From a virus, in IMG/VR virus record IMGVR_UViG_3300022668_000040, positions 1 to 64,000 of that record: a DNA stretch of 64,000 nt; one strand, given 5' to 3'. Under the pieces are notes generated by a model. That model had not been told where the DNA came from. It worked only from the letters and a program-made list of their open reading frames with translations, and did not search any database. Shown one piece after another: positions 56,536 to 60,172 of this stretch. The translations under genes were made by a program, and so were the position numbers. Numbering within the stretch: position 1 is the stretch's first letter; every line of letters starts with the position of its first letter.

Positions 56536-56611
56536 TGGTTCCCGAGTGGAGACTTGAACTCCAAACCTATCGGTTATGAGCCGATGGCTCTACCAGTTGA
56601 GCTACACGGGA
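56536..56611 (-). tRNA. tRNA with CAU anticodon, probably Ile2 (lysidine); elongator Met possible
   Basis: UCCCGUG-UA-GCUC AACUGGUA GAGC-C-AUCGG CUCAUAA CCGAU-AGGUU-UGGAG UUCAAGU CUCCA-CUCGGGA-A-CCA; encoded CCA. Confidence 0.9.
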
Positions 56612-57049: not shown

Positions 57050-58672
57050 TTATTCAGAAATATATTGAGAAATTGCCGCTGGAGTATTTGGAGAAAACCC
57101 GACAACATCCAACATATTATCATAATCTGGCCGCGCTATAGAAAACCTACTTGCAGTCATGCTGCAAACTACAAGTTTTACAGAATGCCCTACTTTATTT
57201 TGATATATATCCAATGCTTGCCAAGGATGAATATTCCCATGAGCAGTTTCATTATCTGTGTAAATCACTATTGCATCCACATCCCAATTTCGTTCTTTGG
57301 CATATAGCATAGGTAACGCACAGTCGGTTCCGCTAAAAGGTAAATTGGAAATTATCTGCAATGTTTGATGTAGTGTCATGCCAGAAGTAAGACACAGCTC
57401 CCCTACACACCCATTTGCACTCAGATGTTTAACATTACGGGGAGCTCCATGTGTGGTGAATCCAATTATTCCAGTGTGTTCTTCAACTCGCATAGTAACC
57501 ATAGCCAGAGCAGCAGATGCCATTCTGCAATCCAACAAGGGGGACCCGGATACTAAATTACATGCCATTGATCCTGATACATCCAATGATAATAGTATCT
57601 TTTTACCCGTGGACTTTACATTTTTAAACGACAAATAAAACGCAGTGTCGAGAATCTGTAAAACTTTAGCGTTCACACTCCAAGATAATGATCCTTTTAT
57701 CCCCCTTCCTCTATTATAAACCAATATAGCATTAAATAGAGATAACGGGTGAATCCTACTATGCAATATACTCTCACGGTTACTCAGTGCCTCCAAAGTT
57801 TTGTTTAATGAATCACTAAACGAATCATGCATTCCTAAAGAAGCCATTTTTCCCAAATTACGCACAAGTGCAGTGTATGGCATGTTTTCCAACAATGCCT
57901 CCCACACATCTCTATTTCGCAGCAATTCTGTGGGGACTACCTCTCTAGTCAATGCGTACTTTTTAATTATACCTGGGGCTTTAAAAGATTTGCATTTTCT
58001 AATCTTTCTTGCCCCTTCTGCATAAGGAGATACTTTTGGAATTTTTCTTATTCCTCCAGTAACGTAACCAAACAATCTGTTTTGATCTTCATTTTTTGGT
58101 TGTGCATGACACATTCGCAATACATCAGCATGTGTCCATCCCGATCTATTTTGGTATTTTAATAATTGATAAGCCAAAACATCTGTATTTTTAGAGGTGT
58201 ACCAATTTGCAATCTGCTCTCGTAAATTTCTACCAAACCCTCTCATATTCTTAATAAAAGAGACAAAGGTAAGAATATGTGTACCTATTCGACAAACTGC
58301 ATTTAAGTGTTGCAACGCATATTTTCTGGTTTCCAAATCTTCAGTGGATGCGGCCATAGCCAAACAAAAAATAGCGGCATCATTGCTTGCAGACAAACCT
58401 TCTTTTGATACAGATACTATAAGGTCTACTGCCCGCTTGCCATCTGATTTAATACACTTCTGTGCTGATTTACATGCCTCTACAGTAAGAGCCCTTTCCG
58501 AGACATAATAGGTCCCTCCTTCAGTTCCTATAACCAAGAGCCTTTCAAAATGTGCCCATTTTGAAATTTTAAAAGATATCCCTCCGGCATTATTCCTCTT
58601 TTGTTCTTCTACTCCGGGAACCTTATCTACTTGTCCGGTTACTTTATTACCATAATGTTTATTGTAATTCAT
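57050..58672 (-). CDS. rsr: Ro60/TROVE-domain RNA-binding protein with vWA domain (Rsr)
   Basis: NNAGG, GTEGGTYY, LLKYQNR.GWTH.D.LR..H, MP.TAL.RNL..M, SRIHP; vWA MIDAS DVSGSM, GTDC, TDNET; GAGGAG SD. Confidence 0.93.
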   Translation of the reverse strand: MNYNKHYGNKVTGQVDKVPGVEEQKRNNAGGISFKISKWAHFERLLVIGTEGGTYYVSERALTVEACKSAQKCIKSDGKRAVDLIVSVSKEGLSASNDAAIFCLAMAASTEDLETRKYALQHLNAVCRIGTHILTFVSFIKNMRGFGRNLREQIANWYTSKNTDVLAYQLLKYQNRSGWTHADVLRMCHAQPKNEDQNRLFGYVTGGIRKIPKVSPYAEGARKIRKCKSFKAPGIIKKYALTREVVPTELLRNRDVWEALLENMPYTALVRNLGKMASLGMHDSFSDSLNKTLEALSNRESILHSRIHPLSLFNAILVYNRGRGIKGSLSWSVNAKVLQILDTAFYLSFKNVKSTGKKILLSLDVSGSMACNLVSGSPLLDCRMASAALAMVTMRVEEHTGIIGFTTHGAPRNVKHLSANGCVGELCLTSGMTLHQTLQIISNLPFSGTDCALPMLYAKERNWDVDAIVIYTDNETAHGNIHPWQALDIYQNKVGHSVKLVVCSMTASRFSIARPDYDNMLDVVGFSPNTPAAISQYISE

Positions 58673-59057: not shown

Positions 59058-59118
59058 ATGGGCAAAATGTAAATTCAATCTTTCTGACTCAATGCGATAA
59101 CGAATTTTCGCGGCCCAT
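59058..59118 (-). ncRNA. minimal Y RNA-like (Y-d)
   Basis: AUGGGCCG...AAAUUCG-UUAUC...UGAAUUU-ACAUUUUGCCCAU; bulged-C Ro helix shared with the other three units. Confidence 0.7.
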
Positions 59119-59125
59119 TTTGATA

Positions 59126-59479
59126 TCACTTAATCAATCTTAATTTTGAATGTTTGTTTTTCTTTGGTTTTTTATCTTTTTTTGAAGCACTCATAGCTAC
59201 AGGAAGTATATAACGCGGATTCCCTTGCATTGTGAATTCTTCCGATCCATTTATTTGAGGAACTCTAAGTGTCCAAACAACGCGCCGGGGAGGCATAGAC
59301 AACATGTCTATTGTTACATGAAACCAGTCATCTTTTTTAGTTTCATCTCTCACAAATTCTCGTATTATGCCCCACATTAAAGAAGAATCTTCTCCAAAAA
59401 ATACCAGAACCGTACTTCCTTGTTCAGCACTTTTTGCTTGTGTTACAATAGATTTTACTTGTTTGATAAGTTGTTTCAT
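59126..59479 (-). CDS. hypothetical protein embedded in the RNA array
   Basis: Probable ATG 59479; DWFHV...PP..VVWTLR...I.G.EEFTM.G; ends KLRLIK. Confidence 0.7.
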   Translation of the reverse strand: MKQLIKQVKSIVTQAKSAEQGSTVLVFFGEDSSLMWGIIREFVRDETKKDDWFHVTIDMLSMPPRRVVWTLRVPQINGSEEFTMQGNPRYILPVAMSASKKDKKPKKNKHSKLRLIK

Positions 59480-59503
59480 CGAAATTCCCAATAAAAATAA
59501 AAA

Positions 59504-59625
59504 GTGGATAAAATAAAGCTCACAATGCGCGTCCTAACCACTAGACGATCACCGAATAGTCGGTGAGCAGGATTTGAACCTACGTTTCGGTCTCCAAATG
59601 ACGATAAGTGAACTTAACGACCCAC
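59504..59625 (-). ncRNA. yrlA: YrlA-type Y RNA (tRNA mimic) (Y-c)
   Basis: GUGGGUCG/UAUCCAC Ro helix; T arm GUAGG-UUCAAAU-CCUGC; acceptor-like stem UCACCGA-CUAU-UCGGUGA; D arm GUCU-AGUGGUUA-GGAC in permuted order. Confidence 0.85.
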
Positions 59626-59785: not shown

Positions 59786-59918
59786 TTATGGACAAAATGT
59801 GAAAAATGAGTATTCTTTAGACTATTGCTCTACCAGCTGAGCTACACCTTCTGTGAAGATGAATGGACTCGAACCATCGACAAACAGTTTTCAGTAATCA
59901 TTTTTCTTCGGCCCATAA
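59786..59918 (-). ncRNA. yrlA: YrlA-type Y RNA (tRNA mimic) (Y-b)
   Basis: UUAUGGGCCGAA/UUUGUCCAUAA Ro helix; T arm GAUGG-UUCGAGU-CCAUU; CAUCUUC-ACA-GAAGGUG; D arm GCUC-AGCUGGUA-GAGC. Confidence 0.85.
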
Positions 59919-59926
59919 ACTTGTAA

Positions 59927-59988
59927 TTGAGCAAATTGCATATTTGGAGGACATCATTAACAGTGATAACCAAATACCTTCGGCCCAA
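59927..59988 (-). ncRNA. minimal Y RNA-like displaying a tRNA-Asn(GUU) anticodon stem-loop (Y-a)
   Basis: UUGGGCCGAAG-GUAUUUGG-U-UAUCA-CUGUUAA-UGAUG-UCCU-CCAAAUAU-GCAAUUUGCUCAA. Confidence 0.75.
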
Positions 59989-60002
59989 ATTTGTAAAAGT
60001 AC

Positions 60003-60060
60003 CCACCTGCCACCTAGAGTGATATGTGCCACACTATGCGGCGAGATAAGTGGCAGGTGG
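60003..60060 (-). ncRNA. closed hairpin unit sharing the UUAUC motif
   Basis: Perfect 11-bp CCACCUGCCAC/GUGGCAGGUGG, followed by UUAUC; inner GCCGC/GUGGC hairpin. Confidence 0.5.
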
Positions 60061-60067
60061 TATTAAA

Positions 60068-60126
60068 TTCGGATCAACGGGGGAGGAATGGGTTGTGAGA
60101 GCCGTTTTATTTCCCGCTGATCCGAA
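60068..60126 (-). ncRNA. closed hairpin unit with an anti-SD-like loop
   Basis: 14-bp UUCGGAUCAGCGGG/CCCGUUGAUCCGAA (G-U only on the - strand); loop ends CCCAUUCCUCC. Confidence 0.5.
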
Positions 60127-60143
60127 ACTCATTTCTTATACAC

Positions 60144-60172
60144 AAAATACTCTAAAACATTTTTTGTGTCAA
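60144..60172 (-). promoter_or_regulatory. sigma70-like promoter ahead of the RNA array and rsr
   Basis: TTGACA (60172-60167), 17-nt spacer, TATTTT (60149-60144), 17 nt before the first hairpin. Confidence 0.6.

What the first reader, a model, noticed from the sequence alone, without database searches (positions are those of the whole stretch)
59927..59988. Minimal Y RNA presenting a perfect tRNA-Asn anticodon stem-loop; sibling Y RNAs carry other anticodon-like loops
Seen: the 62-nt unit is a Ro helix plus an 8-bp stem topped by UAUCA-[CU-GUU-AA]-UGAUG, a 5-bp stem with a canonical 7-nt loop (U33, purine 37) matching tRNA-Asn(GUU). At the equivalent position Y-b has CU-GAA-AA (Phe-like) and Y-c has GUC-[AU-UUG-GA]-GAC (Gln-like, with a Glu/Gln-style D arm). 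Known: anticodon nucleases such as PrrC, RloC, colicin E5 (which cuts tRNA-Asn) and PARIS AriB cleave specific anticodon loops. Inference: Ro60-stabilised anticodon decoys, each tuned to a different tRNA-targeting nuclease or modification enzyme.
Basis: partly seen in the sequence, partly recalled or inferred. Interest (0 to 1): 0.82.

Follow-up and report, generated by a model that had tools for sequence, protein, structure and literature searches.

The report
Anticodon-arm mimic on phage Y RNA
A phage that carries its own Ro60 RNA-binding protein also encodes a 58-62-base partner RNA whose tip looks exactly like the anticodon arm of tRNA-Asn; the same design recurs in many phages and bacteria, which suggests what these partner RNAs present to other proteins, although what that tip does remains untested.

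Summary
On the minus strand at 59988..59927 lies a minimal Y RNA. It has a Ro60-type bulged helix (GGGC-C-GAAG / UUUGCUC), an 8-bp helix, the conserved UUAUC, and a 5-bp hairpin with the 7-nt loop CUGUUAA. It is one of four Y RNAs upstream of an intact phage Ro60 gene.

The fold energy alone is not significant; the support is comparative. About 360 Ro60 loci gave 160 non-redundant Y RNAs.
- The hairpin after UUAYC carries C-U-NNN-A-A loops far above chance (14 against 0.17 in shuffles).
- Its stem covaries.
- CUGUUAA is the commonest loop (at least 12 different stems) and equals the loop of 25 of 25 real tRNA-Asn genes carrying that loop in the same loci.
- In tRNA-like Y RNAs this hairpin sits 9-10 nt before the T stem, as a real anticodon arm does.

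The stem-loop published as a "variable arm" is therefore better read as an anticodon arm, and Y-a keeps only that arm.

Y-c's Gln-like loop and Glu-type D arm hold up. Y-b's CUGAAAA is not a hairpin loop. The decoy-for-nucleases reading is plausible but untested.

The scan reached the same anatomical conclusion on another genome (e1-5931656); I got there independently.

The parts
59927..59988 (-). Y-a, a minimal Y RNA (core GGGCCG...GCUC = 59986..59929)
   Evidence: Sequence; MFE fold; 45.2 bits to model R1, by construction; same architecture in over 100 Y RNAs beside Ro60 genes
59978..59986 (-). 5' strand of the Ro60-docking bulged helix, GGGC-C-GAAG (bulged C at 59982)
   Evidence: Matches GGNCCGA / GNCGAAN0-1G, the Ro60-contact motif (PMC4201824 section 6); invariant in alignments A2-A4
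59929..59939 (-). 3' strand of the Ro60-docking helix (GCAAUUUGCUC)
   Evidence: GGGC pairs with GCUC in the MFE fold; the UUG.YY closing is conserved in homologues
59970..59977 (-). Helix 2, 5' strand (GUAUUUGG); pairs with 59940..59947
   Evidence: 8 bp in the MFE fold; the sequence differs freely between homologues while pairing is kept
59965..59969 (-). Conserved UUAUC (the published YUAY motif), junction and 5' half of the apical stem
   Evidence: Invariant UUAYC after helix 2 in 203 scanned Y RNAs; YUAY noted in PMC4201824
59952..59968 (-). Anticodon-arm mimic: stem UAUCA/UGAUG (5 bp) and loop CUGUUAA (59963..59957; 'anticodon' GUU at 59961..59959)
59790..59914 (-). Y-b, a tRNA-like (YrlA-type) Y RNA with no hairpin after UUAC
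   Evidence: Rfam YrlA 46.5 bits, E 6.8e-09, below the gathering score of 69; R1 15.9 bits with the stem unformed
59504..59625 (-). Y-c, a tRNA-like Y RNA with anticodon-type hairpin GUC-AUUUGGA-GAC (59602..59590), 9 nt before its T stem
   Evidence: Sequence; fold shows T, acceptor and D hairpins; D arm closest to tRNA-Glu
59060..59116 (-). Y-d, a fourth minimal Y RNA (GGGCCG...UUAUC...UUUUGCCC) between the 121-aa ORF and the Ro60 gene
   Evidence: Found by my scan
60144..60172 (-). Promoter-like site TTGACA-17-TATTTT at the head of the array
   Evidence: Best match in the region, 10 of 12; a consensus match only
57050..58672 (-). Ro60 (Rsr) orthologue, 540 aa
   Evidence: Pfam vWA_Ro60 7.5e-49 and TROVE 1.3e-36; closest relatives 61% identical

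Best explanation
Y-a is a small partner RNA of the phage's Ro60, cut out of a long leader transcript that also carries Y-b, Y-c, Y-d, some plain hairpins and the Ro60 mRNA. Ro60 docks on the bulged terminal helix. The 8-bp helix acts as a stalk. The apex is an anticodon-arm mimic, homologous to the anticodon arm of full-length, circularly permuted tRNA-like Y RNAs; Y-a keeps only that arm. I propose it works as the effector module. A protein that reads anticodon loops takes the CUGUUAA loop for tRNA-Asn (U33-G34-U35, U36-A37-A38). That protein is thereby either tethered to Ro60 or titrated away from real tRNA. Shown here: the anatomy, the conservation, the covariation, the identity with real tRNA-Asn loops, and the tRNA register of the homologous hairpin. 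Inferred: Ro60 binding, processing into a discrete RNA, and recognition by an anticodon-loop-binding protein. Within this statement I split the odds roughly as follows: a tether for a tRNA modification, repair or decay enzyme 0.3; a decoy or competitive substrate of an anticodon-loop nuclease 0.25.
For: The locus holds Ro60 on the same strand and four units with the Ro60 motif. The same apex UUAUCACUGUUAAUGAU occurs in contig L002, whose helices are entirely different. Among 160 non-redundant Y RNAs, hairpins with at least 4 bp and a 7-nt loop after UUAYC gave 14 CU...AA loops, against 0.17 in shuffles (maximum 2 of 1000) and 43 of 2334 at other UUAYC sites. There are 59 distinct CU...A[AC] hairpins; 75% have at least 4 bp, against 37% for other 7-nt hairpins, and every stem position shows four Watson-Crick pair types. 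Covariation of the stem: 24 against 6.4 and 44 against 10.9 both-side changes, 0 of 500 shuffles, with slid controls low. CUGUUAA is the commonest loop, on at least 12 different stems. It is the loop of 25 real tRNAs in the same loci, all of them tRNA-Asn. G37 appears only after G36, as in tRNAs. In tRNA-like Y RNAs the hairpin's loop ends 9-10 nt before the T stem in 53 of 69 cases, the same spacing as in real tRNAs. ARAGORN and Rfam's tRNA model read it as an anticodon arm. Positions 34-36 do not follow the YUNR rule of antisense loops. In 12 near-identical orthologues the apex is the only fast-changing part. Published work shows that Y RNAs tether Ro60 to effectors and that tRNA enzymes act on YrlA (PMC4201824; 10.1101/312249).
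Against: There are no expression, end-mapping, binding or modification data for this RNA, and no RNA run holds it. The fold energy of Y-a is ordinary. The outer two pairs of the stem form in only about 35-40% of homologues, so many 'arms' have 3-4 bp. About two thirds of Y RNAs have other apexes. T-arm sequence does not track the displayed triplet, so whole-tRNA identity mimicry is not shown. The resemblance could be inherited from a tRNA ancestor and serve no present purpose. The only established bacterial and phage effector of Y RNAs is PNPase, which is not an anticodon reader.
Confidence: 0.55

Rival explanations
1. One reading: each Y RNA of the array is a Ro60-stabilised decoy tuned to a different anticodon nuclease (Y-a against enzymes that cut tRNA-Asn, such as colicin E5-type nucleases). 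The decoys protect the tRNA pool the phage needs.
For: Units within a locus never repeat a triplet: 0 real duplicates in 26 multi-unit loci, against 2.65 expected. The triplet is the hypervariable part of otherwise invariant orthologues. The related contig L084 carries CRISPR-repeat-like hairpins in the same array, hinting at a decoy theme. Hughes et al. speculate that YrlA may competitively inhibit an anticodon nuclease; that enzyme cuts NNA-A37 tRNAs (Tyr, Cys, Phe, Trp), and the Tyr-, Cys- and Phe-type loops are among those displayed here (PMC7790460).
Against: The duplicate test is not significant. The same loops occur in chromosomal Ro60 loci of many bacterial phyla, not only in phages. 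CUGUUAA dominates everywhere, whereas an arms race should scatter specificities. No nuclease, RtcB or RNA ligase is linked in this record. A stoichiometric decoy must out-compete abundant tRNA, and no abundance data exist.
Confidence: 0.2
2. The hairpin is a structural cap or a generic protein or RNA contact site, for example for PNPase KH/S1 domains or a kissing loop. Its anticodon-like look is a leftover of descent from tRNA and is not read as an anticodon.
For: PNPase is the only demonstrated effector, including for phage phiLo Yrl RNAs (PMC12135203). Stems are often only 3-4 bp. Many Y RNAs have other apexes. T arms do not match the triplet's tRNA identity.
Against: Minimal Y RNAs lost every other tRNA part yet kept this arm. 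Positions 32, 33, 37 and 38 and the exact loop CUGUUAA are conserved across phyla on covarying stems. The G36-G37 coupling has no reason to exist in a mere cap.
Confidence: 0.2
3. There is no RNA gene here: a chance hairpin in an AT-rich spacer, or part of the 67-aa plus-strand ORF 59863..60066.
For: The fold z-score is only -0.85. Rfam gives no match for Y-a.
Against: The Ro60 motif, UUAUC and the apex recur beside Ro60 genes in hundreds of loci. G.U pairs fit the minus strand only. The ORF overlaps three conserved structured units.
Confidence: 0.03

Closest known systems
Short second Y RNAs of bacteria (S. Typhimurium YrlB, M. smegmatis YrlB, D. radiodurans Yrn2; Chen et al. 2014, PMC4201824)
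   Same: A small Ro60-bound hairpin RNA encoded beside rsr together with a tRNA-like Y RNA. It carries the GNCGAAN0-1G motif and is processed from a common precursor.
   Different: [quoted passage not shown] No anticodon-type loop or UUAYC-plus-hairpin apex is reported. I could not compare sequences directly because none was available here.
YrlA, the tRNA-like Y RNA (Rfam RF02553; PMC4201824; crystal structure 10.1101/312249)
   Same: The same Ro60 module and YUAY motif. Its 'V' stem-loop upstream of the T arm is the homologue of Y-a's apical hairpin.
   Different: Y-a has no T, D or acceptor parts and gives no RF02553 match. The published model calls the hairpin a variable arm and states that Salmonella YrlA lacks an anticodon loop. 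Loop consensus and spacing to the T stem here fit an anticodon arm.
tRNA-Asn(GUU) anticodon arm
   Same: A 5-bp stem and the 7-nt loop CUGUUAA, identical to the loop of 25 real tRNA-Asn genes in the same set of loci. It contains the U33-G34-U35 and U36-A37-A38 elements that, from my own knowledge, TGT and the t6A enzymes use.
   Different: The stem sequence is dictated by UUAUC, not by any tRNA-Asn. There is no tRNA body. ARAGORN and Rfam find no tRNA here.
Metazoan Y RNAs and nematode stem-bulge RNAs
   Same: A GGNCCGA bulged helix followed by G(G)UUAUC on the 5' side. This comparison rests on my memory of hY1/hY4 and the sbRNA motif.
   Different: Rfam's metazoan Y RNA and sbRNA models gave no match here at E up to 10. 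The animal RNAs have large internal loops and are not known to end in anticodon-type hairpins.
Thermus phage phiLo Yrl1/Yrl2 with phage Ro60 (PMC12135203)
   Same: A phage-encoded Ro60 with Y-like RNAs upstream. Hijacking of a host factor has been proposed.
   Different: Those RNAs are defined by the CGAA motif and a stem-bulge-stem shape and bind PNPase. No anticodon-like apex is described.

Membership tests
Y RNA (Ro60 partner RNA) | Encoded within about 2 kb of a Ro60/Rsr gene, on the same strand | tested here: met
   Ro60 gene at 58672..57050(-), with TROVE and vWA_Ro60 domains. Y-a lies 1.3 kb upstream on the same strand.
Y RNA (Ro60 partner RNA) | Terminal helix with a bulged C and the GGNCCGA / GNCGAAN0-1G motif on the 5' strand | tested here: met
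   GGGC-C-GAAG at 59986..59978 pairs with UUUGCUC. The motif definition comes from PMC4201824.
Y RNA (Ro60 partner RNA) | Bound and stabilised by Ro60 in vivo | not testable with these tools
   Needs immunoprecipitation. No RNA run holds the locus.
YrlA (RF02553) | T arm, closed acceptor hairpin and D arm forming a tRNA elbow; match to the Rfam model | tested here: not met
   Y-a has none of these and gives no RF02553 match at E up to 10. Y-b scores 46.5 bits, below the gathering score of 69.
tRNA anticodon arm (as a mimic) | 5-bp stem, 7-nt loop, pyrimidine 32, U33, purine 37 | tested here: met
   UAUCA / CUGUUAA / UGAUG.
tRNA anticodon arm (as a mimic) | Loop sequence found in real tRNAs of one identity | tested here: met
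   CUGUUAA occurs in 25 real tRNAs in the fetched loci, all of them tRNA-Asn.
tRNA anticodon arm (as a mimic) | Homologous hairpins sit in tRNA register (loop end to T stem = anticodon-stem strand plus variable loop) | tested here: met
   53 of 69 lie at 9-10 nt, with the mode at 10. Real tRNAs give 9 (191 cases) and 10 (287 cases). Chance hairpins are spread out.
tRNA anticodon arm (as a mimic) | Recognised or modified by anticodon-loop enzymes | not testable with these tools
   Needs modification mapping or enzyme assays.
Genuine tRNA gene | Complete cloverleaf found by ARAGORN or Rfam RF00005 | tested here: not met
   The only tRNA found in the window is tRNA-Met at 56536..56611.
YUNR U-turn loop of antisense RNAs | Y-U-N-R at the 5' side of the loop | tested here: not met
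   Y-a reads C-U-G-U. Across the 59 hairpins the fourth loop position (tRNA position 35) is not restricted to purines. The YUNR rule is taken from my own knowledge.

The most novel reading that the evidence does not exclude
Ro60-Y RNA particles of phages and bacteria are a display system for interchangeable mimics of translation RNAs: anticodon arms with at least 21 different triplets, whole permuted tRNAs, and even a 23S rRNA helix. The displayed piece sets which RNA-directed enzyme (anticodon nuclease, toxin or modification enzyme) is captured, sensed or neutralised. Y-a would be the tRNA-Asn/queuosine-family module of such a set.
Probability: 0.25. Interest if true: 0.9.

Novelty: new variant of a known kind. 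Interest (0 to 1): 0.7.

Why it matters
The function of the tRNA-like part of bacterial Y RNAs has been open since 2014, and the published model says these RNAs lack an anticodon loop. This locus and its relatives show three things. Many Y RNAs do display an anticodon arm. A whole class of minimal Y RNAs consists of nothing else besides the Ro60 handle. One loop, that of tRNA-Asn, is the most widely kept. That narrows the search for the missing partner to proteins that read anticodon loops. It also gives a simple handle for experiments: swap three bases. Finally, it links Ro60 particles to the tRNA-cleavage and repair biology around RtcB and to phage counter-defence. On the practical side, gene finders call some of these Y RNAs as tRNAs.

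Tried and rejected
The arrays of the closest Ro60 relatives (57-61% identity, P0002-P0005) could therefore not be fetched. Only L083 and L084 (56% and 52%) were available.
- Exact-peptide search of viral contigs with the window's Ro60 found nothing.
- No RNA holder is listed for the locus; read laying was not used.
- The fold energy of Y-a is not significant, and I do not use it as support.
- MFE-based picking of the first hairpin mixed in T loops and missed short stems. I replaced it by explicit enumeration with controls.
- Test for whole-tRNA identity mimicry: the nearest real T arms do not share the identity of the displayed triplet, so this was rejected.
- Test for avoidance of repeated triplets within a locus: 0 real duplicates against 2.65 expected, not significant.
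- Rfam did not flag the 23S-like Y RNA; BLAST against E. coli did.
- MAFFT could not align the 3' halves in structural register. The covariance model therefore covers only the 5' 36 nt, and helices 1 and 2 were not formally tested for covariation.
- No RtcB or Rnl2-type ligase lies in the 76-kb record, which is 69% complete. The 121-aa ORF inside the array has no Pfam or PHROG match.

Full report
**Context.** The window belongs to a 76,088-base IMG/VR virus record estimated at 69% complete. The genes around the finding are phage-like and lie on the minus strand: an ATP-dependent DNA ligase, endonuclease VII, dCMP deaminase, a RecA-like protein and a 5'-3' exonuclease. ORF 58672..57050(-) is a Ro60/Rsr orthologue (vWA_Ro60 7.5e-49, TROVE 1.3e-36). 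Its nearest relatives are 61% identical metagenomic proteins, and cultured phages reach only 40%. A promoter-like site (TTGACA-17-TATTTT, 60172..60144) heads about 1.5 kb of non-coding sequence upstream of Ro60.

**The observation.** Read on the minus strand, 59988..59927 holds the following parts:
- a terminal helix GGGC/GCUC with a bulged C, followed by GAAG;
- an 8-bp helix;
- UUAUC;
- a 5-bp stem UAUCA/UGAUG;
- the 7-nt loop CUGUUAA.

RNAfold returns this structure, but the energy is ordinary (z = -0.85), so thermodynamics gives no support. Rfam and ARAGORN report nothing for Y-a. Rfam finds YrlA at 59908..59797 (Y-b, 46.5 bits, below the gathering score of 69). My scan found a fourth unit with the same handle, Y-d, at 59116..59060. 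Y-c (59625..59504) has a variant handle (GGGUCG) and clear T, acceptor and D hairpins.

**Relatives.** A pattern search found a viral contig (L002) with three minimal Y RNAs directly upstream of its own Ro60 gene. The first of them has the same 17-nt apex, UUAUCACUGUUAAUGAU, on completely different helices. I then fetched 80 viral, 80 metagenomic and 80 genomic (MAG) Ro60 loci with a Ro60 alignment, plus pattern-derived viral loci. A scan for the Ro60 motif, UUAYC and a closing helix gave 232 distinct Y RNAs. Of these, 203 had a well-formed helix 2, and 160 remained after clustering at 80% identity. In all of them helix 2 ends in GG followed by UUAYC. This is the 'YUAY' motif that Chen et al. 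2014 describe as beginning the 'V loop' (PMC4201824).

**The hairpin after UUAYC is real and anticodon-like.**
- I enumerated hairpins with at least 4 bp and a 7-nt loop (T loops excluded) in the 30 nt from UUAYC. This gave 64 loops, of which 14 fit CU...AA. Shuffles averaged 0.17 (maximum 2 of 1000), and UUAYC sites elsewhere in the same loci gave 43 of 2334. CUGUUAA itself occurred 5 times against 0 in shuffles.
- A slightly wider handle definition gave 59 distinct CU...A[AC] hairpins. Of these, 75% have at least 4 bp, against 37% for all other 7-nt hairpins (the chance level). Each stem position shows four Watson-Crick pair types.
- A covariance model of the 5' 36 nt (R1) found 53 matches in the window plus the viral and first metagenomic loci, and 129 in the 80 MAG loci. 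In both alignments, both-side changes exceed every one of 500 shuffles (24 against 6.4, and 44 against 10.9), and the slid controls are low.
- The inner three pairs are nearly always formed. The outer two form in about 35-40% of sequences. In Y-a all five form.

**Which loops occur.** Twenty-one triplets occur in the CU...A[AC] set. The most frequent are GUU 14, UGA 6, GCU 5 and GAU 4. CUGUUAA sits on at least 12 different stems: UAUCA, AUCA, GCA, UCGU, UCGA, UCGGA, UUACC, CCU, ACC, UCUCA, UCUA and UUAUC. These come from phage contigs and from Verrucomicrobiota, Polyangiaceae and Anaerolineae MAGs. Among 827 ARAGORN-called tRNAs in the same loci, CUGUUAA is the loop of 25, all of them tRNA-Asn. 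Most other frequent Y loops are also genuine tRNA loops: CUGCUAA Ser, CUGAUAA Ile, CUCGAAA Ser, CUGUAAA Tyr, CUGCAAA Cys, CUUUUAA Lys. G37 occurs only after G36 (6 of 11 against 0 of 55), a coupling that real anticodon loops also show. Position 35 is not restricted to purines, so the loops do not follow the YUNR rule of antisense RNAs.

**Anticodon arm, not variable arm.** In tRNA-like Y RNAs that have this hairpin, the distance from the loop end to the T stem is 9-10 nt in 53 of 69 cases, with the mode at 10. This is the sum of a 5-nt stem strand and a 4-5-nt variable loop. Real tRNAs in the same loci show the same spacing (9 in 191 cases, 10 in 287, after correcting an off-by-one in my script). 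Chance hairpins are spread out. The linker often reads (G)AGGUC, like a class I variable loop. ARAGORN itself called five Y RNAs as tRNAs; in three of them (Ser-gct, Asn-gtt, Leu-tag) it used this hairpin as the anticodon arm. Rfam's tRNA model weakly matches the same part in L084. The published model places the Ro60-proximal helix at the anticodon-stem position and calls this hairpin 'V'. For Salmonella YrlA, which has no such hairpin, the authors state that it lacks an anticodon loop (10.1101/312249). The data here fit a complete cloverleaf opened between the D arm and the anticodon arm, with the Ro60 stalk attached at that point. Minimal Y RNAs such as Y-a keep only the stalk and the anticodon arm.

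**The siblings.** Y-c has GUC-AUUUGGA-GAC 9 nt before its T stem. In Y-b the homologous letters CUGAAAA follow UUAC, but no stem forms: they are a junction strand. In the closest fetched relative (L084, Ro60 52% identical), CUGUUAA sits on stem GCA/UGC in the tRNA-like unit, and a minimal unit shows ACACU-CUUGCAU-AGUGU. No locus repeats a triplet (0 real duplicates in 26 loci), but with 2.65 expected this is not significant. In twelve near-identical orthologues (the five from named MAGs are Verrucomicrobiota), the apex is the only part that changes.

**Function.** Nothing here measures function. Published work shows the following:
- Y RNAs tether Ro60 to PNPase.
- tRNA enzymes modify YrlA.
- In many bacteria rsr sits beside the RNA ligase gene rtcB; in Salmonella this shared rsr-yrlBA-rtcBA operon is switched on by tRNA halves cut in the anticodon loop.
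- Hughes et al. speculate that YrlA could inhibit the nuclease responsible.

(Sources: PMC4201824, PMC7790460, PMC12135203.) I therefore commit to the apex being bait for an anticodon-loop-reading protein (0.55 overall), with tether and decoy as sub-cases. The held record has no RtcB or Rnl2-type ligase.

**Novelty.** Y RNAs, short second Y RNAs, phage Ro60 and the 'V' stem-loop are all published. I found no paper describing the anticodon-type loop consensus, the tRNA register, the dominance of the tRNA-Asn loop, or minimal Y RNAs as 'anticodon arm on a Ro60 handle'. An earlier follow-up in this scan reached the same anatomical conclusion on another genome (e1-5931656). My analysis was done before I read it.

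Noticed in passing
L143:4924-4954 (also L287:1442, L331:4955, L349:4867): Some Y RNAs carry, directly after UUACC, a stretch that is 30/31 identical to E. coli 23S rRNA (from memory, the helix 69-71 region). This looks like a Y RNA displaying an rRNA helix rather than a tRNA part.
   Followed up: partly
L084:2394-2424 and 2480-2510: In the closest fetched relative's Y RNA array, two copies of a 31-nt unit ending in GGAUUGAAAC give weak matches to Rfam CRISPR-DR9 (22.2 bits, E 0.028). The first copy sits inside a long helix. They may be solitary CRISPR repeats, as in RNA anti-CRISPRs.
   Followed up: partly
window 60003-60060 (-) and 60070-60124 (-): Two G+C-rich hairpins at the head of the array fold far better than shuffles (z -4.2 and -3.3). 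The second in transcript order has UUAUC right after its 12-bp stem but lacks the bulged-C handle.
   Followed up: no
window 59060-59116 (-): A fourth minimal Y RNA (Y-d) lies between the 121-aa ORF (59491..59126, no Pfam or PHROG match) and the Ro60 gene. Its apex does not form a 7-nt anticodon-type loop.
   Followed up: partly
window 59819-59881 (-) against Sphingomonas phage PAU 1319-1384: Y-b's T arm, acceptor hairpin and D arm align at 82% identity, in sense orientation, with the 3' part of tRNA-Asn plus the 5' part of the next gene, tRNA-Trp. This hints that permuted tRNA-like Y RNAs could arise from the junction of two tandem tRNA genes.
   Followed up: partly
L363:5163 (Gordonia phage Sixama, MN484601, between its annotated tRNA-Arg and tRNA-Gln): An unannotated tRNA-like Y RNA with CCUU-CUGCUAA-AAGG sits inside a cultured phage's tRNA array, and minimal Y RNAs lie upstream of that phage's Ro60. 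This makes it a usable experimental system.
   Followed up: partly
L282:978-1044, L107:774-846, L107:1028-1098, L339:2794-2867, L350:5054-5134: ARAGORN calls the 5' parts of Y RNAs as tRNA genes (Ser-gct, Asn-gtt, Leu-tag, and two Asp-atc). This is a likely source of false tRNA annotations next to Ro60 genes.
   Followed up: yes
window 59957-59963 and 59593-59599 (-): The two anticodon-type loops of this array are Asn-like (GUU) and Gln-like (UUG). These are the two tRNAs served by the GatCAB transamidation pathway. It may be coincidence.
   Followed up: no
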